Below, in pieces: positions 50,530 through 61,235 of a stretch of DNA of 61,235 bases. A model generated the notes under the pieces. The model made no database searches. It was not told the DNA's origin and worked only from the letters and a program-made list of their open reading frames with translations. Every line of letters begins with the position of its first letter. Within the stretch, counting starts at the first letter, position 1. Both the position numbers and the translations under genes were made by a program. The stretch comes from Escherichia phage slur01: the sequence record NC_028831.1; one strand, given 5' to 3'.

Positions 50530-50756
50530 TAGCGGTCCTCGATTGCTCTAATTGTGGTTAAATCTAATTCACAGGTTGGAGGGTATCCATAAAGTCCAAT
50601 TTGTTTTCCTTGTGCATTAAACCATGTACCTGACGGATCCTGCCACTGCTTAGGTGTCTTGTGGAGAAATACTACTCTGTTTTCACCGTAATAATTAATT
50701 CTTACACCTGTGTGAGTATATTTACGTTTACCTTTTGGTCTTCTTAAGTTAGCCAT
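50529..50756 (-). CDS. hypothetical protein
   Basis: 75-aa basic ORF coupled between dpdA and the downstream gene. Confidence 0.45.
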   Translation of the reverse strand: MANLRRPKGKRKYTHTGVRINYYGENRVVFLHKTPKQWQDPSGTWFNAQGKQIGLYGYPPTCELDLTTIRAIEDR

Positions 50757-51676
50757 CAGAACAACTCCATTACACGATCACGGAATGTGCCGTCATGGGT
50801 GGCGTTAATGTTTGCAGCAATTACACCATACGCCCATAAGTTGAAGGCAGCACGTGATTCATAGATTGTTGATAAACGTTCGTAAGTGAAACCGTTTTGC
50901 TCAAGGTATTTAAGGACAGCGTCTTGTTCAATTTCAGTTAATGTTGAAACATGCTTACCAAAATGGTGGCGGTCCGGCGACTTATCTGATACGCGCATTG
51001 GGCCCCACGGAGGAGTAACCACACTTCCAAACGCTGCTGCTTGAATCCAGGAGGATGAGTCACAGCTATACCACGGATAACGCTCCATAATGGTTGTGGA
51101 CGTAATACCAAACGCATGAAGTTTAATCTTAGCACGTCCGCTACCGTCGCAAATATATTTGTCCCACATGCGGTCAAGCCAAGTTTTAAGCGTGTCTGTG
51201 GAACGCCCTACCATGCCACCGATGGTGATATATTCGTAGTTCTTCATGTAGTATTCAAGATAGCGGAAGTCCTCCCCAAAGTGAAAGCAAGGTAACGGTT
51301 TAGCACCGCGTGCTTCCATTTCAAGTTGGTTACGGTAGGTTTGCAACGGATCACCGATACCATCGAGCACCGACGCCATTACTGCGCCATCTTCTACGCG
51401 AAGGATGTCTTTGTTGCGCTTGATGTATTCGCAGTATTCAACAATATCAATGTGAGCACCTAACGAGTGCGCGGAGAATGCACCGGAGTCGAGAAACACT
51501 TTAGCCCCGTCCGCACGCATCTGATCGACATACTTCTGACGCCCAACGTAGTGGTATGATTCCAAAATATGGGGCAGATTGCGCGTGATATTTTTCTCAT
51601 GCTCAGACAGCTTTTCATAACGCTGCTGGCCAGGCATATAGCCGTTAGTATACACAGCCGCCATGAATACATTCAT
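50756..51676 (-). CDS. dpdA: DpdA-like DNA-guanine transglycosylase (TGT superfamily)
   Basis: 306 aa with FLDSGAF and ITIGGMVGRS segments, encoded next to the folE-queD-queC-queE cluster; RBS GGAGG. Confidence 0.6.
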   Translation of the reverse strand: MNVFMAAVYTNGYMPGQQRYEKLSEHEKNITRNLPHILESYHYVGRQKYVDQMRADGAKVFLDSGAFSAHSLGAHIDIVEYCEYIKRNKDILRVEDGAVMASVLDGIGDPLQTYRNQLEMEARGAKPLPCFHFGEDFRYLEYYMKNYEYITIGGMVGRSTDTLKTWLDRMWDKYICDGSGRAKIKLHAFGITSTTIMERYPWYSCDSSSWIQAAAFGSVVTPPWGPMRVSDKSPDRHHFGKHVSTLTEIEQDAVLKYLEQNGFTYERLSTIYESRAAFNLWAYGVIAANINATHDGTFRDRVMELF

Positions 51677-51755: not shown

Positions 51756-52214
51756 TTATTTAAAATTAGCTTTCTTAGTTTCGCTAATTTTACGTTTGGT
51801 TTCCTCTGTATGATGTTTCCCGTACATTGGATTCAGTTCACCATATTTTTGATACATTGGGTTATCTTTCCCAAACCGTGGACGTGTCCTTGCCCTCCCT
51901 CTAACTTTCTTATCCAACCCGTTTTGTTTTTGATCTCCTAAATATAAATGATCTGGGTTAATGCAAGACGGATTATCACATGTATGCAGAACGCACCCTG
52001 TAGCGGAATCAGGTAAACCAATTTCTCCTTTGTACAGTTTATAGCTCTCGCGATGCGCAAAACTAAAAATTCGTTCACCTTTGGAACCACTAATCATTCT
52101 ACCGTAACCGTCTTTATCCTTACTACCAGTCCAGTTCCAGCAACCAGTAGAAGGGTCTATAACGTATTTGCTTAGTCTTTCGGACATCGGCTTTTTAGTA
52201 TAGACCCTTGGCAT
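51756..52214 (-). CDS. HNH homing endonuclease
   Basis: GCWNWTGSKDKDGYGRM and HTCDNPSCINPDHL HNH_3-type motifs; inserted between folE and dpdA. Confidence 0.75.
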   Translation of the reverse strand: MPRVYTKKPMSERLSKYVIDPSTGCWNWTGSKDKDGYGRMISGSKGERIFSFAHRESYKLYKGEIGLPDSATGCVLHTCDNPSCINPDHLYLGDQKQNGLDKKVRGRARTRPRFGKDNPMYQKYGELNPMYGKHHTEETKRKISETKKANFK

Positions 52215-52215
52215 A

Positions 52216-52875
52216 TTAACGAATCCGTTGATAATTAGTAGCAGATTCTAAAAATTCTTGGCGCCATTGTTTACCAATATCACTACCATGTTCCAGCTCT
52301 GTAGCTCCACGGAAAGCTTTCGTAATAGTGCTCGAGCCACAAACCTGCTTGATTCCTCTTGCCTCCATGCACATATGCTTAGCGTCAATATAAACACATA
52401 CAGCTTTCGGGTTTAAATGCTCCTGAATAGCGTCTGCAATCTGGTTAGTAAGACGTTCCTGAACTTGCAGTCGACGACTAAAAGCATCCACAACGCGAGA
52501 CAGCTTACTAAGCCCAACAATCTTCCCATTGGGGACATAACCAACAACAGCACGACCGATGATAGGAGCCATGTGATGCTCACAATGACTGTATACAGGA
52601 ATATCACGGACAATGACCATTTCATTGGTGTTTTCCGCCCCATCCTCAAAGGTTTTAAACAGTCCAGCAATATCTACATCATAGCCCCCGAACCACGTCT
52701 GGTATGCTTTAGCAACACGATATGGAGTCTCTTCCAAACCTGGACGTAATTCAATGCAATCTTCAATACGAGTTAGTAAAGTACGCACAGCTCGAGTAAT
52801 ATCAAATTGAGTAGCTTCGTTATCAATAGTAAATTTTGGCATGGTTTGCAGTTTCCTTGTTGTTAATGTGGTCAT
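52216..52875 (-). CDS. folE: GTP cyclohydrolase I
   Basis: Signature SHCEHHMAPI and HMCMEARG motifs. Confidence 0.9.
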   Translation of the reverse strand: MTTLTTRKLQTMPKFTIDNEATQFDITRAVRTLLTRIEDCIELRPGLEETPYRVAKAYQTWFGGYDVDIAGLFKTFEDGAENTNEMVIVRDIPVYSHCEHHMAPIIGRAVVGYVPNGKIVGLSKLSRVVDAFSRRLQVQERLTNQIADAIQEHLNPKAVCVYIDAKHMCMEARGIKQVCGSSTITKAFRGATELEHGSDIGKQWRQEFLESATNYQRIR

Positions 52876-52876
52876 A

Positions 52877-53371
52877 TTACAGGCTATAGTTTACGTGACA
52901 TTTCGAAGTTTCTTCGATGGTGCATTCTACAAGTTGAACACCATGTTCGTCAAGCAGTTGTGGCCCAATTACGTTGACCATATATGCAGCTAAGTTTTCC
53001 GCAGTTGGGTTGAATGGTAAAGATACCAATGAGCTTAAGAAATGCTCATGGTCTTCATGTTCCAGAGGACAACTCGGGCGACTTGCTGCAATTTTCAAAG
53101 CGTCAATCAAATTATCACGATTCCAATGCAGGAACTTATGATCCCAATTATCTTCCAACCACTGGCAGAGCGTAGTTTTAACCACACTGAAGTCGATAAC
53201 CCGCCCAACGTCGTCCAGCAAGTTACTATTGATTTCTTGAAACCCTTTTTTCGGCGCAACCTTAAAGTGAAACTTATAGTTGTGACCGTGAAGGTGACGA
53301 CACTTACTTTCATGACCCACAACGCGGTGACCAGCGCAAATTTCATGTGAACGAATTACTGTATAACTCAT
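52877..53371 (-). CDS. queD: 6-carboxy-5,6,7,8-tetrahydropterin synthase
   Basis: Zn-binding CxxxHGH pattern (CAGHRVVGHESKCRHLHGHNY); T-fold size. Confidence 0.85.
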   Translation of the reverse strand: MSYTVIRSHEICAGHRVVGHESKCRHLHGHNYKFHFKVAPKKGFQEINSNLLDDVGRVIDFSVVKTTLCQWLEDNWDHKFLHWNRDNLIDALKIAASRPSCPLEHEDHEHFLSSLVSLPFNPTAENLAAYMVNVIGPQLLDEHGVQLVECTIEETSKCHVNYSL

Positions 53372-53925
53372 TTTAATACCTCTTTAGACTGTTCAATTTC
53401 TAACGCACGCTGCGCCGACGCAATAATGTCTTTCAAATCTTCTACAAGACTTTTATGACCGCGTTCGCCAGGCTGCAACGCCTTTTTAATCAAATGTTGT
53501 AAAGCTGGGTTAGTTGTCTTCCAAGCTTCCAAGACATCATAGACGTCCACGATGCATTTTACAACATTCCCGTTTTGATCTTTACCATAAATAACTTTCT
53601 GATATTTATTCATGGGAATTTTAGACGGTTCGTATTTCATAAAAATTGCGGTTTTGTCAGTTCGCCAATTGGGTAAATTCCCTTCAATAGCTTGCTTGGC
53701 ATAATCCTCCGCAACGATATATCGCCAGGCTATAATATCTTGAATTTTATAAGGGCTATTCTCATCCATAGCTGAACGCCCTTCTACAGCCCAATCCCAT
53801 CCATCTAATAGATTCTTAACGTGTGTGCCGTTGCGCAAACGAACTTCAAACTTTTCATTGCGAAGAAAGATAGGCATTCCTTTCCCATCGTGCTGGTGCC
53901 AAATTTTATTCAAATTATCTTTCAT
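53368..53925 (-). CDS. hypothetical protein inside the 7-deazaguanine cluster
   Basis: 186 aa from the ATG 2 nt after the upstream stop; no recognised motif. Confidence 0.5.
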   Translation of the reverse strand: MKDNLNKIWHQHDGKGMPIFLRNEKFEVRLRNGTHVKNLLDGWDWAVEGRSAMDENSPYKIQDIIAWRYIVAEDYAKQAIEGNLPNWRTDKTAIFMKYEPSKIPMNKYQKVIYGKDQNGNVVKCIVDVYDVLEAWKTTNPALQHLIKKALQPGERGHKSLVEDLKDIIASAQRALEIEQSKEVLK

Positions 53926-53927
53926 TT

Positions 53928-54407
53928 TTACACTCTCGCTGTACGTGAATGAACTTCGTAAACAATCCAAAGGATAGCGGACGCTGTGAACTTACTTAAG
54001 CTCATTGCTACCATAGATCCTGGATTAACAATACCTATAATACTTAAGAACACAATGGAATCAATTGGTACAGCTACCAAAGAGCTGATAAATACACGTT
54101 GATGAAACGGCTTCTTAGTAATCGTGTATACCGCATAGTCCGCAAACTCGCTAAGAGCAAAGGATGCAACGGATGCAACTACAACCGCAGGATTACCGAA
54201 CACCCAGCTAAGGATGCAACCAACAATCATTGCCGGGATGACGCCTTTACCAGCGTTACGCTGTGCGTAATCACGCAGGACAAAGATAATGCCTACAAAG
54301 AAAGCCATCATTGGGACTACGCCAAGTGGCGTGTTAAGCATTGGAAGGTAGGAAAATCCCAGATTTACGAATATGATTGCAGCCAAGTAAGCAACGATAA
54401 ATTTCAT
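53928..54407 (-). CDS. Integral membrane protein, candidate queuosine-precursor transporter
   Basis: Four to five predicted TM helices; encoded inside the que cluster. Function is inferred from context only. Confidence 0.35.
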   Translation of the reverse strand: MKFIVAYLAAIIFVNLGFSYLPMLNTPLGVVPMMAFFVGIIFVLRDYAQRNAGKGVIPAMIVGCILSWVFGNPAVVVASVASFALSEFADYAVYTITKKPFHQRVFISSLVAVPIDSIVFLSIIGIVNPGSMVAMSLSKFTASAILWIVYEVHSRTARV

Positions 54408-54527
54408 ACTTTTGTTCTCCAGTTTTAACAGCGCTATTCGCTGGTTGTTGGGTTTAAAAGCTTTAGTAGTATAGTTGGGTTACCGCACCCTAAACAATGC
54501 GCTAGCGGTGCGGTTTTCGCGGTAAGA

Positions 54528-55235
54528 TCAAGCTTTGCTGATAAATTCGCTATAGCCTTTAGCGCGAAGTTTACACGCCGGGCATTCCCCGCAACCGTAT
54601 CCCCAGTCATGCAGAGTGCGACGGACGCCATTATAGCACGTATGGGACTGCTCAATTACTGTGGTTAAGAAACCAACCTTATCCGCCAGCTCAAACGTTT
54701 CTGCTTTATTTAAACGCATAAGCGGAGTAACAAAATGGATATCTGTTTCATATCCAACGTTTAATGTAGCTTCAAGAAGGTCTACAAACTGCTGACGGCA
54801 ATCCGGATAACCGCTATAGTCCGTTTCACAAACGCCCGTAACCACATATCGGGCTCCAACCTTCTGCGCGTAGGCGTGCGCGGTAGTCAGGAAAAGAGCA
54901 TTACGGTTGGGCACAAAGCTTGCCGGAAGGTTGTTGTGCTGTTCGTGATGTTCGTTAACATCACCTTCGTTCCCGATTAAAGCACTATTGCCGATCTGTT
55001 TCAAAGCAGGTAATTCAAAGACAACAAACGGGACATTGTGCTCTTTACAAATTTGATTAGCACAAGCCAGCTCAATGTTATGACGTTGACCGTATGCAAA
55101 ACCAATAGCGTACACCTTATCATAGTTATTAAGCGCAAGACCCAAACAGGTCACGCTGTCCTGGCCGCCAGACAGGACGACAACGGCGGAGTTATGATTT
55201 TTTACAGGGAATACCAGTTTATCTAATTTATTCAT
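54528..55235 (-). CDS. queC: 7-cyano-7-deazaguanine synthase
   Basis: PP-loop VLSGGQDS and C-terminal Zn motif CGECPAC; 235 aa with no amidotransferase fusion. Confidence 0.9.
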   Translation of the reverse strand: MNKLDKLVFPVKNHNSAVVVLSGGQDSVTCLGLALNNYDKVYAIGFAYGQRHNIELACANQICKEHNVPFVVFELPALKQIGNSALIGNEGDVNEHHEQHNNLPASFVPNRNALFLTTAHAYAQKVGARYVVTGVCETDYSGYPDCRQQFVDLLEATLNVGYETDIHFVTPLMRLNKAETFELADKVGFLTTVIEQSHTCYNGVRRTLHDWGYGCGECPACKLRAKGYSEFISKA

Positions 55236-55630: not shown

Positions 55631-55885
55631 TTAAACCTCCGTTAATGTTTGAGTCCAGTCTAAGCCTTCAAGATCTACATCAGCTATTTCATCGTACTCG
55701 TAAGCTTCCGGATCTGCTGGCAACCATCTATCAAAGCGATGGCTAAGTTCTGGAGGAATTGCTTCATACCCCCAAACCTTCCCATCCTTGTCGGCTGCCA
55801 GATAATCAACTCGACTTGGAACGGTTAAAGTGACACCACAAAAATTAACATCTTTAGTATGCACAACCTGGCTTAACACACGCAT
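55631..55885 (-). CDS. hypothetical protein, small paralog family member
   Basis: YLAADKDGKVWGYEAIPPE...DLEGLDWTQTL matches the family at 15750..15989 and 16333..16629. Confidence 0.5.
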   Translation of the reverse strand: MRVLSQVVHTKDVNFCGVTLTVPSRVDYLAADKDGKVWGYEAIPPELSHRFDRWLPADPEAYEYDEIADVDLEGLDWTQTLTEV

Positions 55886-56592
55886 TATTCCACTCCGATA
55901 TATTTGTGAACCTGAAGCTGCAACGTGTAACCGTGTTTCATACAGCTTTGGACAACGGCTTGGATATTACTGTGGTTAAGGTCTTCATCCTGCTCGTCCA
56001 TTGGCTGTAAATATATCTTACCCTTGAAACCCTTCGGAGGTCTAGCGATAAATGGCGTAGCTTGATGATCTAATGCCTGAAGCGGCAAACCATCTTCCAC
56101 GTTTACACAGCACGCTTTAAGTACATATTTAAATGCATTAGCGCGGCGCAGCACAGAAGGATGAATCTTTGAGGTCTTGGGACTACATACAATTACAGGT
56201 AACTGGGAAAAGTTCTTAGGTAAAGGCATAGACCCATTAGTTTCAATTTGCACCAAATACCCGCGCGATAACAGTTGTTCAATAAACGGGTTAATTTGCT
56301 GACGGAACGGTTCACCCCCAGTGATAACCACAAGTGAGGTGCTATTACCTGATTCCAGCTTACGGCTTTCGATTAAACGCATAATATCGACAATATGATA
56401 AAGACTACGACCAACAGTATAATCCGTATCACAGCCAGGACATTGCAGGTTGCACCCAGCAAGACGCACAAATACAGCAGGTTGTCCGCAGAATGGACCT
56501 TCACCCTGAATGGTAGAGAATACCGAATGCACGTCTAAATACATATCGTTTTCTTTAGAACGAGACTCGGGAGCTTGTTGATTAATATTCAT
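55885..56592 (-). CDS. queE: 7-carboxy-7-deazaguanine synthase (radical SAM)
   Basis: Radical-SAM cluster motif CNLQCPGC; 235 aa; coupled to the downstream gene. Confidence 0.85.
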   Translation of the reverse strand: MNINQQAPESRSKENDMYLDVHSVFSTIQGEGPFCGQPAVFVRLAGCNLQCPGCDTDYTVGRSLYHIVDIMRLIESRKLESGNSTSLVVITGGEPFRQQINPFIEQLLSRGYLVQIETNGSMPLPKNFSQLPVIVCSPKTSKIHPSVLRRANAFKYVLKACCVNVEDGLPLQALDHQATPFIARPPKGFKGKIYLQPMDEQDEDLNHSNIQAVVQSCMKHGYTLQLQVHKYIGVE

Positions 56593-56661: not shown

Positions 56662-57465
56662 TTACAAGCCGTTCAGGGCTTCCGGTACTGGCATAGGTAC
56701 GCGACCAGTTACACCATTAAACTTCTTCCAACGTGCATACTGAGTTTTAACGGTATCTTCGTTCAGACCGTGGCGACCAGCCAGATTCAGAACATAAGAG
56801 ATCGGAGCAGGCTGACCCAGCGTAGCGCTAATCTGATCCATCAGAGCCCAGGCACGACCGCAGGAAGTTTCAGGTTGTGGACGACGAACACCATTCTGTT
56901 CAGGCATACGGTTCGCTTCTTTCGCTTTTTCACGTTCAGCTTTTTCGCGGGCTTTTTCAGCAGCCTTTTCAGCCTGTTTAGCAGCGCGGATCTTGTCTTT
57001 GAAGCCTTTGATAAACGAATCCAGTTCGTCAACCATGCTCTGAGCAGCACTTACTGCACCGGACAGATCTTCATCTTTGGATTTTTTAACAACTGCTTTC
57101 AGCTCTTTCAGTTTATTCTTAAAAAGCTTCAGCTGTTCAGAACCCTGAAATTCAGCTACCGTAATCTCTTCAATAGTGCCTTTATCGGCAACATCGGATA
57201 AAACAGACCTCACGGTTTCAACTCCGCGGGAAAGAGCGGTAAATTTATTTTCCGCTACAGCACGAATTTCAGCTTGTTTCTTTTCAGCGGCAGCTTTTTT
57301 CTCTGCTTCTTTTTTCTCTTTTGCTACGCGTGCAGCTTCAGCGGCAGCGGCTTTTTTAGCTTCTGCATCGTTAGCAGTAACTTCTTTCTTTGCAGGCTTA
57401 GCAGATTTTGCAGCGGCAGCAGCGGCTGCGGCAGCAGCGGCTTTCTTATCTTCAATATTACTCAT
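56662..57465 (-). CDS. Ala/Lys-rich histone-H1-like protein with a globular C-terminal domain
   Basis: N-terminal AAAAAAAAAAKSAKPAKK and AEKKAAAEKK repeats; start re-picked at ATG with GGAG RBS. Confidence 0.55.
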   Translation of the reverse strand: MSNIEDKKAAAAAAAAAAAKSAKPAKKEVTANDAEAKKAAAAEAARVAKEKKEAEKKAAAEKKQAEIRAVAENKFTALSRGVETVRSVLSDVADKGTIEEITVAEFQGSEQLKLFKNKLKELKAVVKKSKDEDLSGAVSAAQSMVDELDSFIKGFKDKIRAAKQAEKAAEKAREKAEREKAKEANRMPEQNGVRRPQPETSCGRAWALMDQISATLGQPAPISYVLNLAGRHGLNEDTVKTQYARWKKFNGVTGRVPMPVPEALNGL

Positions 57466-57592
57466 TTTCTTCACTCCGAATTATTATGGGTTCGTTTGTT
57501 ACCAACGGGGTTAAATGTACCAAAGGATTTTGTGACACGCAACCACTTACATAAACATTTTTAAAAATATTTTTGATCAGGGTTAGAACTTA

Positions 57593-58146: not shown

Positions 58147-60123
58147 TTAGAAAGGAACGTAATCCGGATCGTCTACTTGCACAGGGTTAACCACATTGTT
58201 CACCGTTATACCTTGCGTATTCTGCGAAACAATATCGTCCCAACTTACATCATCGTTATAGCTCGGACCTTCTGTTGTTCCATCCTGACCGTATACTTTA
58301 ACCTGAATAGCTTCGTCGTCCTGTGGAGCTTCAAACTTACCGAAACAAGTACCGTCATAATCATAGTTCAATATCTCAGGCCATTTCTTATTGGTATGAA
58401 CTTTGATGTATTTTGGTGTTTTAAGCATTGCAGCAACATCAAGAGCTTCTTCAATAGTTTGTGGTAAAGGTAAATGTGTCCTTTTCTTCCACCATGCGAC
58501 AGCTTTACGACCTGCCCAGTCCCCATGAAGCAGAGCTACCCATTCACTGAATATTTTACTACCGCAATAATAAGTCACCTTCATTGTTGGAGGTTTAGAG
58601 CTGTCATTGCGTTTAGTATGCTTTGCATAAGTAACATGCGTAACTTTGAAGTCTTCAACTACTGGAATATCCTGCTTGATCAGGGCTTCCGTACTTGCAG
58701 CTTTCTTGAGTTTGGTCTGGAACTTAAACTCATGACCGCAAAAGCCTTCTTTAACGTAATCCGTCCCGCGTAGCCTAAATCCTTTCAGATATAATTGTTG
58801 AACTTGTTCCTGTGTGACGCTGTCCATTGGGATTGGTGCGAAGCCACCGCAATAGCGAGCGGATGCATGATTATACGACCCACATACATCGCATTCTTTA
58901 ACCGGAGCAGTGCCAGCACCTTTTTCGCCCGGGCGCTTGGGTTTAACAGGGTCGTTAATAGGGCCCAAACGGCGCGTATTACCGCTGAAATCCAGTACAA
59001 GGCAGTTCTGCTTGGGGCTTGCCGCAATAGCTTGTAAGCGTCCCTCCTGCGTGGAAAGATCAAAGCCCTCCGCGTACACCGGACGCGTACCGCGACCCAG
59101 CATCTGAACCCATAGCACCGCCGACGCAGTGGGACGGAGCATGATAATTAAGTCCAGCATTGGATGATCAAAACCTGTGGTTAAGACGTTATTGTTAGTT
59201 AATGCTCGAAATTCACCGCGCTTGAATTTTTCAATAATCTCGTCACGTTCTTTTGCATCAAGCTTAGAGTGAATACATCCACAGCTAATACCCATATCGT
59301 TCAGCATATCGCACGCGTCTTTAGCGTGTTCAATGCCAGAACAAAATATAAGCCAGCTTTGACGGTCTTCACCACATTCAATTGCTTCCTCAAGTGCGCG
59401 GAGTGTTGCGTCATCGCGGTTTACCGCACTTTGCAGCTCACTCTGAATAAATTCACCGCCGCGTTTACCTACCCCGTTGAGGTCTAGTTCCATCTTAGTA
59501 CGCTTTGGCACAACCGGAAGAAGATAACCTTGTTCCAGAAACCAGTTGAAGGCTTCCGGAGTAGTTGCATCAAACGTTACCTTATCAAATAACGCATCAT
59601 CGTCTTCGTTTTCCTTAACAATTGAACCATACCCCAGTCGATAAGGTGTAGCAGTAAGACCGATGATTTTTAAGTAAGGGTTAACTTCACGCAACGCTGC
59701 AAAGAACTTCTTATACATTGTTGCATCACGCGGACTAATAAGATGCGCTTCGTCCACAAAAATAAGATCAACTTTGCCGAACTTTTTCGGATGCTTAGCA
59801 ACGGACGCAATTCCTGCAAAGGTAATAAGATTGTAGACTTCTTTACGCTTCAAACCCGCGCTGTAAATACCTGCTGGCGCTTCGGGCCAGACTTTCATTA
59901 ATTTATCATAGTTTTGTGCAATTAACTCTTTGACGTGAGTTAACATCATTACGCGCTGGTTTGGATACCATTTGTAAAGCAGATCGAGGAACCCCGCGAT
60001 AACGAGCGATTTTCCTGTCCCTGTTGGTAACAGGATCAAAGGGTTCCCCGCGTTACCCTTTTCAGCATCAAAATAGCGGAATACGCTATAAACTGCTTCC
60101 TGTTGATAATCTCTTAATTTCAT
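58147..60123 (-). CDS. Superfamily-2 DEAH-box DNA helicase with C-terminal extension
   Basis: Walker A LLPTGTGKS, DEAH box FVDEAHLIS, motif III GLTATPYR, motif VI QMLGRGTR; about 250 extra C-terminal residues with Cys cluster CDVCGSYNHASARYCGG. Confidence 0.85.
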   Translation of the reverse strand: MKLRDYQQEAVYSVFRYFDAEKGNAGNPLILLPTGTGKSLVIAGFLDLLYKWYPNQRVMMLTHVKELIAQNYDKLMKVWPEAPAGIYSAGLKRKEVYNLITFAGIASVAKHPKKFGKVDLIFVDEAHLISPRDATMYKKFFAALREVNPYLKIIGLTATPYRLGYGSIVKENEDDDALFDKVTFDATTPEAFNWFLEQGYLLPVVPKRTKMELDLNGVGKRGGEFIQSELQSAVNRDDATLRALEEAIECGEDRQSWLIFCSGIEHAKDACDMLNDMGISCGCIHSKLDAKERDEIIEKFKRGEFRALTNNNVLTTGFDHPMLDLIIMLRPTASAVLWVQMLGRGTRPVYAEGFDLSTQEGRLQAIAASPKQNCLVLDFSGNTRRLGPINDPVKPKRPGEKGAGTAPVKECDVCGSYNHASARYCGGFAPIPMDSVTQEQVQQLYLKGFRLRGTDYVKEGFCGHEFKFQTKLKKAASTEALIKQDIPVVEDFKVTHVTYAKHTKRNDSSKPPTMKVTYYCGSKIFSEWVALLHGDWAGRKAVAWWKKRTHLPLPQTIEEALDVAAMLKTPKYIKVHTNKKWPEILNYDYDGTCFGKFEAPQDDEAIQVKVYGQDGTTEGPSYNDDVSWDDIVSQNTQGITVNNVVNPVQVDDPDYVPF

Positions 60124-60626
60124 AAAGGTCTCACTGTTCCATGATTCTTGTTAAACCCGTATGTAATTTCAGCCTCTTTTCTTGTCTTTATTGCGTCTTG
60201 TAGACTTTCAAAATAACCAAGATGCAGCCGAATACCGTATACATCAATTTGAGCTTTCCATTTCTTATTTGCCTTAGCCCATGTCACTCCAGGACAACCG
60301 CTCTTATTATTCGATGGTAGTTTTCTATTATGGTTGTTATGGTATTTATTACTTTTATTTAGATTAGTTTTCCAATTATGCGTACCATCACCATCATCAT
60401 GATCAATATATTCAGGTTCTTCATCATAGAGCATTTTCCAGATTATACGGTGTGCGTAATAATTAAGACCGTTCATAAAAACCATAATATAGGTTTTACC
60501 ATGATTAAAAGTAACTTCACTCCCTGCAATTTGACCGTTATGGTTCCAAAATAAGTTACCGCTATCTTCGCTATAGCTAAAAATCCTATTGAGTTCTTCT
60601 TGCGTCGGTAACGGCAACCTTTTCAT
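60120..60626 (-). CDS. HNH homing endonuclease with C-terminal AP2 domain
   Basis: HNH segment HRIIWKMLYDEEP...IDHDDGDGTHNW and AP2 segment SGCPGVTWAKANKKWKAQIDVYGIRLHLGYFESLQDA; start at ATG (track uses a TTG at 60632). Confidence 0.7.
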   Translation of the reverse strand: MKRLPLPTQEELNRIFSYSEDSGNLFWNHNGQIAGSEVTFNHGKTYIMVFMNGLNYYAHRIIWKMLYDEEPEYIDHDDGDGTHNWKTNLNKSNKYHNNHNRKLPSNNKSGCPGVTWAKANKKWKAQIDVYGIRLHLGYFESLQDAIKTRKEAEITYGFNKNHGTVRPL

Positions 60627-60628
60627 AA

Positions 60629-61235
60629 TCAATCTTTCCCGTAATAATTAGCTACTTGATAGTTTTGACAACCAACTTTCTGTCCTTGCGTATCCACTGC
60701 GGCGGAATGGAAATTGCAATACCATGTTCCATCTTCTTTTGGTTCAAGGAATTGACATGTGCGGCAGTTTACTTCCGGCATAGTTTTACGCCAGCATAGT
60801 GAGGAGTGATCGCACCATTTACATTCGAAGAAAGTGGAATCTTTAAATGCGCGGTCCGGAATATCTGTAGCAATAGCAATCTGCACACCACGATCAATAT
60901 ACATGTCCGCGGTAACAGGATCAAACGGAATAATTTCTGCGTAAACTTCATCGTCATTCTTGTTTACAGCAAGATATAACGCTGCGCCAAGACCTAGTTT
61001 TCGCATGTACACGTTCATCTGTACATAGTGCTCAGGTTTGGCTTCTTTAACACCTTTAGCTTTCAGCTTTTTAAAAGACTTATCGTTATGCGTCTTCATT
61101 TCGGTGAGCACAGGCATCCCAGGCTGCACGTCCGGACAACCTATAACCACACCATCGCAGGAACCGCCAAAGTGTCCGCCAGCTTCGCTGATACGGAACT
61201 GGTGTCCATTTTCGTCCTGCTGATAGACCTGCATA
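60629..61235 (-). CDS. 3' part of the YqaJ/lambda-Exo-like PD-(D/E)xK exonuclease (5' part at 1..429 across the junction)
   Basis: In frame with the 1..429 segment through the terminal repeat; C-terminal Cys cluster CKWC...CWRK...CRTC; total about 302 aa. Confidence 0.7.
   Translation of the reverse strand, partial: MQVYQQDENGHQFRISEAGGHFGGSCDGVVIGCPDVQPGMPVLTEMKTHNDKSFKKLKAKGVKEAKPEHYVQMNVYMRKLGLGAALYLAVNKNDDEVYAEIIPFDPVTADMYIDRGVQIAIATDIPDRAFKDSTFFECKWCDHSSLCWRKTMPEVNCRTCQFLEPKEDGTWYCNFHSAAVDTQGQKVGCQNYQVANYYGKD
61109..61235. repeat. 127-bp terminal direct repeat, identical to 1..127
   Basis: Exact identity with the first 127 bases of the window. Confidence 0.9.

What the first reader, a model, noticed from the sequence alone, without database searches (positions are those of the whole stretch)
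53928..54407. Integral membrane protein embedded in the deazaguanine cluster
A 159-aa protein with several TM helices is encoded between the cluster hypothetical and queC. A transporter for a queuosine precursor would let the phage salvage host or environmental precursors. Its presence in a biosynthetic phage operon is unusual.
Basis: inference. Interest (0 to 1): 0.5.

Follow-up and report, generated by a model that had tools for sequence, protein, structure and literature searches.

The report
Phage YhhQ-like preQ0 transporter gene
The 159-residue membrane protein is a real, short, phage-type relative of the bacterial queuosine-precursor (preQ0) transporter YhhQ, but the same gene is already annotated as such and has been deleted experimentally in the sister phage CAjan, so the finding is correct and ordinary.

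Summary
The ORF at 53928-54407 (minus strand, 159 aa, ATG start, GGAG ribosome-binding site 9 nt upstream) is real. It lies between queC and a conserved hypothetical gene in the folE-queD-queC-queE-dpdA cluster.

The window is Escherichia phage slur01, a Seuratvirus. There the protein is labelled "hypothetical". Orthologs 96-98% identical in CAjan, Greed, Skure and the BASEL phages are annotated "preQ0 transporter YhhQ".

Evidence for the family assignment:
- The protein is a minimal six-helix member of the Vut_1/COG1738 family. Pfam scores 26.8 bits against a cutoff of 27.2.
- Profile-profile comparison with E. coli YhhQ and cellular relatives gives 99.6% probability, E 9e-24.
- Nine residues are invariant across phage and cellular members.
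- dN/dS is about 0.03-0.04.
- In 65 of 80 viral contigs carrying this short form, a DpdA DNA transglycosylase lies within 10 kb. In 48 it is directly adjacent.

The most likely function is import of preQ0, or a close 7-deazaguanine base, to feed DpdA. Transport has never been shown for the phage protein. A CAjan yhhQ deletion keeps normal DNA modification.

Novelty: already known. Interest: low.

In passing, the 8-mer TAACCACA occurs 47 times genome-wide against about 2 expected, and the queC-yhhQ spacer is unusually conserved.

The parts
53928..54407 (-). CDS of the 159-aa short-form Vut_1/YhhQ-like six-helix membrane protein (putative preQ0 transporter); stop codon TAA at 53928-53930
   Evidence: ORF. 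Pfam Vut_1 26.8 bits. hhalign 99.6% to the YhhQ alignment. AF2 model. Exact sequence is YP_009201623.1 of phage slur01.
54417..54420 (-). GGAG ribosome-binding site, 9 nt upstream of the ATG
   Evidence: Read directly from the sequence.
54408..54527 (-). 120-nt queC-yhhQ spacer (leader). It holds a GC-rich hairpin (54482-54514) and a second 5-bp hairpin just upstream of the ribosome-binding site. Function unknown; possibly a promoter, attenuator or RNA stability element.
   Evidence: 98-99% identical among five Seuratviruses, while flanking coding DNA is 89-95%. Fold z-score is only -1.8. No Rfam match. No consensus terminator or promoter in the spacer.
54528..55235 (-). queC (7-cyano-7-deazaguanine synthase), immediately upstream gene
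   Evidence: Pfam QueC 7e-75.
53368..53925 (-). Conserved hypothetical gene immediately downstream (185 aa from ATG 53925). Also a neighbour of the transporter gene in related loci.
   Evidence: phrog_23361 1e-111, function unknown. No Pfam or PDB match. Homolog within 10 kb of vut in 5 of 80 IMG/VR loci.
52877..53371 (-). queD (6-carboxytetrahydropterin synthase)
   Evidence: Pfam PTPS 1.4e-23.
52216..52875 (-). folE (GTP cyclohydrolase I)
   Evidence: Pfam GTP_cyclohydroI 8e-63.
50756..51676 (-). dpdA (DNA 7-deazaguanine transglycosylase), the enzyme the imported base would feed
   Evidence: phrog_887 8e-96. 100% identical to CAjan DpdA.
55885..56592 (-). queE (7-carboxy-7-deazaguanine synthase, radical SAM)
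   Evidence: Pfam Radical_SAM/Fer4_12. Annotated QueE in CAjan and WildeMaa.

Best explanation
The gene encodes a minimal (159 aa, six membrane helices, N-in/C-in) member of the Vut_1/COG1738 (YhhQ, 'QPTR') family. These proteins resemble solitary S-components of ECF vitamin transporters.

Proposed mechanism: the gene is expressed with the phage's early DNA-metabolism operon and the protein inserts in the host inner membrane. There it imports free 7-cyano-7-deazaguanine (preQ0), or a very close 7-deazaguanine base, from the medium or from neighbouring lysed cells. This adds to the pool made by phage FolE-QueD-QueE-QueC. DpdA then exchanges preQ0 for guanine in phage DNA, producing dPreQ0, which protects against restriction.

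What is shown: the ORF, its membrane character, family membership at the profile level, purifying selection, and linkage to DpdA.

What is inferred: the substrate, the direction of transport, and operation without an ECF energising module.
For: Family membership:
- Vut_1 is the only Pfam hit (26.8 bits, E 7.8e-6).
- All 45 sampled short-form relatives hit Vut_1.
- hhalign of the short-form family against E. coli YhhQ plus cellular 'queuosine precursor transporters' gives 99.6%, E 9e-24, over residues 1-126.
- D46, G53, S67, A78, S79, D90, S108, D116 and F120 are invariant across phage and cellular members, E. coli YhhQ included.

Structure:
- The AF2 model is a six-helix bundle.

Selection: dN/dS 0.03-0.04.

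Genomic linkage:
- 65 of 80 IMG/VR loci with this short form carry DpdA within 10 kb. In 48 of 80 it is directly adjacent on the same strand. 69 of 80 have at least one deazaguanine gene.
- DpdA calls were validated as phrog_887.
- DpdA-like genes occur in only 240 of 50,697 GenBank phage records.
- The complete genome of Vibrio phage PS25B.1 has the transporter plus DpdA but no detectable folE, queD, queC or queE.

Literature:
- E. coli YhhQ is required for preQ0 salvage and has six transmembrane helices. E. coli K-12 has no ECF module (PMC5372724).
- The CAjan ortholog is treated as yhhQ (PMC7544227).
Against: - No phage member has been assayed for transport.
- The CAjan yhhQ deletion had wild-type modification levels in rich medium (PMC7544227), so the gene is not needed when the synthesis genes are intact.
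- The score falls 0.4 bits below Pfam's gathering cutoff and far below the TIGR00697 equivalog cutoff (21.9 against 50.95).
- Pairwise BLAST to E. coli YhhQ is not significant.
- COG1738 subgroups differ in substrate (preQ0, preQ1, queuine; PMC5372724), so specificity cannot be read from homology.
- The host already has its own YhhQ.
Confidence: 0.7

Rival explanations
1. It is a Vut_1-family transporter, but for a different substrate: preQ1, queuine, another purine-like base or a vitamin. On this view the link to DNA modification is indirect.
For: COG1738 splits into subgroups that track preQ0, preQ1 or queuine salvage, and no residue is universally conserved (PMC5372724). The phage form is a separate short clade that misses the equivalog cutoff.
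Against: Seuratvirus DNA carries dPreQ0 and DpdA uses preQ0 (PMC7544227). The transporter's most constant neighbour across viromes is DpdA itself. Some phages carry only the transporter plus DpdA.
Confidence: 0.15
2. It moves the base outward or buffers it. For example, it could export excess preQ0, or the guanine released by base exchange, rather than import.
For: The direction of transport has not been measured for any phage member. The deletion has no effect on modification level.
Against: Characterised family members and S-component-like proteins are importers (PMC5372724). Export of an expensive precursor is hard to reconcile with a phage that replaces about a quarter of its G. Phages that have the transporter plus DpdA but no synthesis genes need import.
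Confidence: 0.05
3. It is a membrane protein with a non-transport role: a holin, a superinfection-exclusion factor or a membrane anchor.
For: It is small and very hydrophobic. Weak, non-significant BFVD matches to holins exist (E 0.87 or worse).
Against: It has six helices and clear Vut_1 homology with conserved intramembrane polar residues. It lies in the DNA-metabolism operon, not beside an endolysin. It is linked to DpdA in unrelated phages.
Confidence: 0.04
4. It is a dispensable remnant with no current function.
For: The CAjan deletion mutant is viable and fully modified.
Against: dN/dS is 0.03-0.04 at dS about 0.4. 17 positions are invariant across 45 relatives down to 38% identity. The gene is retained across several phage genera.
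Confidence: 0.03

Closest known systems
CAjan gp41 'yhhQ' (YP_009196835.1) and orthologs in Seurat, Greed, Skure and the BASEL phages (e.g. WildeMaa bas23_0042 'preQ0 transporter YhhQ')
   Same: 96-98% identical, same length, same position between queC and the hypothetical gene, and the same 120-nt upstream spacer.
   Different: Nothing of substance. The slur01 record simply calls it a hypothetical protein.
E. coli YhhQ (COG1738 / Pfam Vut_1 PF02592 / TC 2.A.88), the preQ0/preQ1 importer
   Same: Six-helix topology. Shared invariant D, G, S, AS, D, S, D and F positions. Association with deazaguanine genes (PMC5372724).
   Different: About 18-22% identity and 159 against 221 residues. The phage form lacks the N- and C-terminal extensions and the insertions in loops 2-3, 3-4 and 5-6. 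It fails the TIGR00697 equivalog cutoff. Its transport activity is untested.
Solitary ECF-type S-components (RibU, ThiT, FolT, BioY, BtuM)
   Different: No sequence similarity. Foldseek is not significant. The host has no ECF module (PMC5372724).
QueT/QrtT ECF S-components for preQ1
   Same: Same proposed physiological role, salvage of a queuosine precursor.
   Different: No Pfam match to QueT at E <= 0.01. No preQ1 riboswitch upstream.

Membership tests
Vut_1 / COG1738 (YhhQ, queuosine precursor transporter family) | Passes the curated Pfam PF02592 gathering score | tested here: inconclusive
   26.8 bits against a cutoff of 27.2, E 7.8e-6, and the only family hit. All 45 short-form relatives match at E <= 0.01, best 3e-9. 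Close homologs carry a precomputed PF02592 label.
Vut_1 / COG1738 (YhhQ, queuosine precursor transporter family) | Profile-level homology to experimentally characterised E. coli YhhQ | tested here: met
   hhalign of alignment A1 against A2 (E. coli YhhQ plus cellular members): 99.6%, E 9e-24, phage residues 1-126 aligned to YhhQ 11-171. Pairwise BLAST alone is not significant.
Vut_1 / COG1738 (YhhQ, queuosine precursor transporter family) | Six transmembrane helices with the C-terminus in the cytoplasm | tested here: met
   AF2 helices, hydropathy and the positive-inside charge pattern. This is a prediction only. YhhQ topology is taken from PMC5372724.
Vut_1 / COG1738 (YhhQ, queuosine precursor transporter family) | Family-wide conserved polar and small residues retained | tested here: met
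   D46, G53, S67, A78, S79, D90, S108, D116 and F120 are invariant in a joint alignment of 10 phage-type and 11 cellular members. No residue has been functionally tested in any member.
Vut_1 / COG1738 (YhhQ, queuosine precursor transporter family) | Genomic association with queuosine/7-deazaguanine genes | tested here: met
   The gene is inside the folE-queD-queC-queE-dpdA cluster here. DpdA lies within 10 kb in 65 of 80 viral loci and is adjacent in 48.
Vut_1 / COG1738 (YhhQ, queuosine precursor transporter family) | Transports preQ0, preQ1 or queuine | not testable with these tools
   No assay of a phage member was found in the literature. The CAjan deletion shows no change in modification (PMC7544227), which neither supports nor refutes transport.
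NCBIfam TIGR00697 'queuosine precursor transporter' (equivalog) | Score at or above the equivalog cutoff of 50.95 bits | tested here: not met
   21.9 bits, covering only residues 69-134. The protein is therefore a divergent subfamily, not an equivalog by NCBI's criterion.
ECF-transporter S-component fold | Structural similarity to solved S-components | tested here: inconclusive
Holin | Small protein with 1-4 transmembrane helices next to an endolysin, with holin-family homology | tested here: not met
   Six helices, no holin family hit. BFVD holin matches are at E 0.87 or worse. The gene sits in the DNA-metabolism operon.
QueT/QrtT | Pfam QueT match, or a preQ1 riboswitch upstream | tested here: not met
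   No QueT hit at E <= 0.01. No Rfam match at E <= 10 other than two chance RAGATH hits.

The most novel reading that the evidence does not exclude
The short form (about 155-165 aa) may be a virus-specific clade of the YhhQ family whose true functional partner is DpdA rather than the preQ0 synthesis enzymes. The two genes would form an 'import-and-insert' module that lets phages without any synthesis genes hypermodify their DNA from scavenged 7-deazaguanines. In Seuratviruses the gene might also be controlled by the unusually conserved 120-nt structured leader, which could be an undescribed ligand-responsive or attenuator RNA.
Probability: 0.2. Interest if true: 0.45.

Novelty: already known. 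Interest (0 to 1): 0.15.

Why it matters
A phage-borne importer for a DNA-hypermodification precursor would mean that anti-restriction DNA modification can be fuelled by scavenging as well as by synthesis. That bears on how phages lacking the synthesis genes modify their DNA, and on precursor exchange in dense communities. The idea and the annotation are already published. What remains open is the biochemical proof and the condition under which the gene pays for itself.

Tried and rejected
- Pairwise BLASTP to E. coli YhhQ was not significant (E 1.3 and 13). Profile methods were needed.
- hhalign of the family against the single YhhQ sequence was weak (probability 2%, E 0.023). It became decisive only with a YhhQ-side alignment.
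- The PDB sequence search gave one chance hit, a PTS EIIC at E 0.021.
- The afdb50 fold library was unavailable.
- Foldseek against the PDB gave nothing significant.
- An Rfam search of the upstream spacer for a preQ1 riboswitch found none. A whole-window Rfam search and a tRNA scan were both empty.
- The consensus scan found no terminator. Promoter-like sites were no more frequent than in shuffled sequence, and none lay in the spacer.
- The spacer's folding energy is not significant (z -1.8).
- The spacer hairpin and the -10-like box are not repeated elsewhere in the window.
- A literature search for the over-represented 8-mer returned only unrelated papers.
- The holin and QueT readings were rejected for lack of any family match.

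Full report
**Observation.** The window is the complete 61,235-bp genome of Escherichia phage slur01. The exact 159-aa sequence is YP_009201623.1, labelled "hypothetical protein". DNA identity to SLUR75, Greed, Seurat, CAjan and the BASEL Seuratviruses is 91-96%.

The ORF 53928..54407 on the minus strand is as described. It has an ATG start with no alternative start upstream in frame. A GGAG lies 9 nt upstream, and the TAA stop comes 2 nt before the next gene's ATG. queC (54528-55235) is upstream. A conserved hypothetical gene is downstream; its real start is probably 53925, not the overlapping TTG at 53970. queD, folE, an HNH endonuclease and dpdA follow, and queE lies further upstream.

**What the protein is.** Pfam gives one family, Vut_1 (PF02592), at 26.8 bits. 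This is 0.4 bits under the gathering score. NCBIfam gives only TIGR00697 "queuosine precursor transporter" at 21.9 bits, well under its equivalog cutoff of 50.95. PHROGs places it in phrog_4899, function unknown.

A database search returned 118 relatives. Those below about E 1e-24 are 143-191 aa, mostly 155-165. A second tier consists of cellular proteins of 164-201 aa, mostly 183-193, named "queuosine precursor transporter". A full HMMER scan with the family profile found 1,357 cluster representatives at E <= 1e-3.

Sequence evidence for membership:
- All 45 sampled short-form members hit Vut_1 individually.
- Pairwise BLAST to E. coli YhhQ is not significant.
- Profile-profile comparison of the short-form alignment with an alignment of E. 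coli YhhQ plus cellular members gives 99.6% probability and E 9e-24. It aligns phage residues 1-126 with YhhQ 11-171.
- In a joint alignment, D46, G53, S67, A78, S79, D90, S108, D116 and F120 are invariant in all 21 sequences.
- Relative to E. coli YhhQ, the phage form lacks both terminal extensions and the insertions in loops 2-3, 3-4 and 5-6. It is a stripped-down core.

**Structure.** The AlphaFold2 model (pLDDT 83.4, pTM 0.71) is a bundle of helices at 2-20, 33-70 (bent at the RDYAQR...GKG turn), 73-97, 101-124 and 129-158. Together with the hydropathy profile and the alternating basic loops, this indicates six spans with both termini inside. That is the topology reported for YhhQ (PMC5372724).

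**Evidence for function.**
- Selection. dN/dS against CAjan and two metagenomic orthologs is 0.03-0.04 at dS about 0.4. 17 positions are invariant down to 38% identity. The protein is clearly in use.
- Context. I fetched 80 IMG/VR loci encoding this short form and searched their six-frame ORFs with iterated HMMs seeded from the window's genes.
  - 65 of 80 have a DpdA within 10 kb.
  - In 48 of 80 the DpdA is directly adjacent on the same strand.
  - 69 of 80 have at least one deazaguanine gene.
  - Only about 20 of 80 have the synthesis genes nearby.
  - Of 34 loci with at least 5 kb on both sides, 29 have DpdA. Fourteen of those have no synthesis set in range.
  - After dereplication at 90% identity, 40 of 53 clusters have DpdA.
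- Validation and background. The DpdA calls were confirmed as phrog_887. DpdA-like genes occur in only 240 of 50,697 GenBank phage records.
- Complete genomes. Vibrio phage PS25B.1 has the transporter and an overlapping, unannotated DpdA, but no detectable folE, queD, queC or queE. Arthrobacter phage Aoka has the membrane protein two genes from an annotated DpdA-like gene. My HMMs detected no synthesis genes there, but they also missed that DpdA-like gene.
- Other arrangements. In Rhizobium, Aminobacter and some Vibrio phages the gene sits in the replication module instead.

This pattern is what a precursor importer serving DpdA would show.

**Literature.** E. coli YhhQ is required for preQ0 salvage, and for preQ1 salvage at higher concentration (PMC5372724). 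Hutinet et al. noted that some phages encode YhhQ homologs (PMC6884629), and yhhQ occurs in bacterial dpd clusters (PMC5699537).

Kot et al. describe the CAjan cluster as folE, queD, queE, queC, yhhQ and dpdA. They deleted yhhQ with CRISPR-Cas9. The mutant's DNA stayed modified and restriction-resistant like wild type, whereas folE, queC and dpdA deletions lost the modification (PMC7544227). Olsen et al. again call it a putative preQ0 transporter (PMC10484667). I found no direct transport assay of a phage member.

**Most likely mechanism.** The protein is a solitary S-component-like importer that brings in preQ0, or a close analogue. This tops up the pool DpdA needs to replace roughly a quarter of the G residues in each progeny genome. 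The supply appears limiting: folE and queC mutants that rely on host synthesis reach only one twelfth of the normal level (PMC7544227).

The ORF, the family assignment, the selection and the DpdA linkage are shown. Substrate, direction and energetics are inferred. I put about 0.95 on "Vut_1-family transporter" and about 0.7 on "imports preQ0 for DpdA". The rivals are a different substrate, export or buffering, a non-transport membrane role, and a relic. Each is less well supported.

**Novelty.** However, the gene is already annotated and has been studied genetically in near-identical phages, and its presence in such clusters is common rather than unusual.

The modest additions from this analysis are three:
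- The phage form is a distinct minimal subfamily that narrowly misses the curated cutoffs.
- Its most constant partner across viromes is DpdA.
- It is under strong purifying selection despite being dispensable in the laboratory.

**Side observations.**
- The 120-nt queC-yhhQ spacer is 98-99% identical among five Seuratviruses whose flanking genes are 89-95% identical. It contains two hairpins and has no Rfam match. More distant relatives have a different GC-rich hairpin at the same place.
- The 8-mer TAACCACA/TGTGGTTA occurs 47 times in the genome against about 2 expected. It is by far the most over-represented 8-mer. It occurs on both strands, in several reading frames and with no flanking conservation. 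It is equally enriched in CAjan and WildeMaa but not in distant phages. It contains GGTT, the context for which Kot et al. reported partial nanopore signal. From memory, it is one mismatch from the DnaA-box consensus. I could not explain it.

Noticed in passing
whole window (47 sites, e.g. 36, 2664, 2719 ... 59176, 61144): The 8-mer TAACCACA/TGTGGTTA occurs 47 times against about 2.1 expected. The 9-mer TTAACCACA occurs 25 times against 0.71 in dinucleotide shuffles (maximum 4). The 5' neighbour is T, A or G but almost never C.

There is no flanking conservation. Sites lie on both strands at a median spacing of 1.2 kb, and 43 of the 47 lie inside ORFs in several reading frames. 24 of the 26 coding-strand TGTGGTTA copies read xxT GTG GTT Axx.

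The motif is equally enriched in CAjan, WildeMaa and two IMG/VR Seuratviruses, and weak or absent in distant phages. It contains GGTT, which Kot et al. 2020 reported as partially 'modified' in nanopore data. From memory, it is one mismatch from the DnaA box TTATNCACA. It remains unexplained.
   Followed up: partly
window 54408-54527 (-): The 120-nt queC-yhhQ spacer is 98-99% identical among slur01, CAjan, WildeMaa and two IMG/VR phages, while adjacent coding DNA is 89-95% identical. It holds an 8-bp GC-rich hairpin (54482-54514) and a 5-bp hairpin just 5' of the ribosome-binding site.

It has no Rfam match and no consensus terminator or promoter. Distant relatives (L010, L012, L017) have a different GC-rich hairpin directly upstream of their transporter gene, followed by a T-run in L010 and L017. 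It may be an attenuator or another regulatory RNA.
   Followed up: partly
window 51756-52214 (-): A 152-aa HNH/NUMOD3 homing-endonuclease-like ORF is inserted between dpdA and folE. CAjan and WildeMaa have a small hypothetical gene at this position instead.
   Followed up: partly
window 60120-60632 (-): A 170-aa ORF between the helicase and the exonuclease-like gene has no Pfam hit at E <= 0.01. By eye, its C-terminal part (GVTWAKANKKWKAQIDVYGIRLHLGYFESLQDAIKTRKEAE) looks like an AP2-type DNA-binding domain, which is typical of phage homing endonucleases. WildeMaa has no gene between the corresponding helicase and exonuclease.
   Followed up: no
window 53368-53925 (-); L014 upstream of vut: The conserved hypothetical gene next to the transporter (phrog_23361) has no Pfam or PDB match. 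Its C-terminal roughly 90 residues match several other PHROGs of unknown function. A homolog lies beside the transporter in related loci, but upstream of it in L014, so the adjacency survives a change of gene order.
   Followed up: partly
L089 (Vibrio phage PS25B.1) 36105-36872; IMG/VR loci L022-L087: A short DpdA (about 228-260 aa, MIHYHGTP...DNGAF...IPDV...FGSSG...ASADS) lies immediately downstream of, or overlapping, the short transporter gene in 48 of 80 viral contigs. In PS25B.1 it is annotated only as 'conserved protein of unknown function'. That complete genome has no detectable preQ0 synthesis genes.
   Followed up: partly
window 56662-57474 (-): A 270-aa Ala/Lys/Glu-rich low-complexity protein with internal direct repeats (57278-57453). 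It has no Pfam hit. The CAjan homolog is annotated as containing a 'transcriptional activator FtrA domain'.
   Followed up: no
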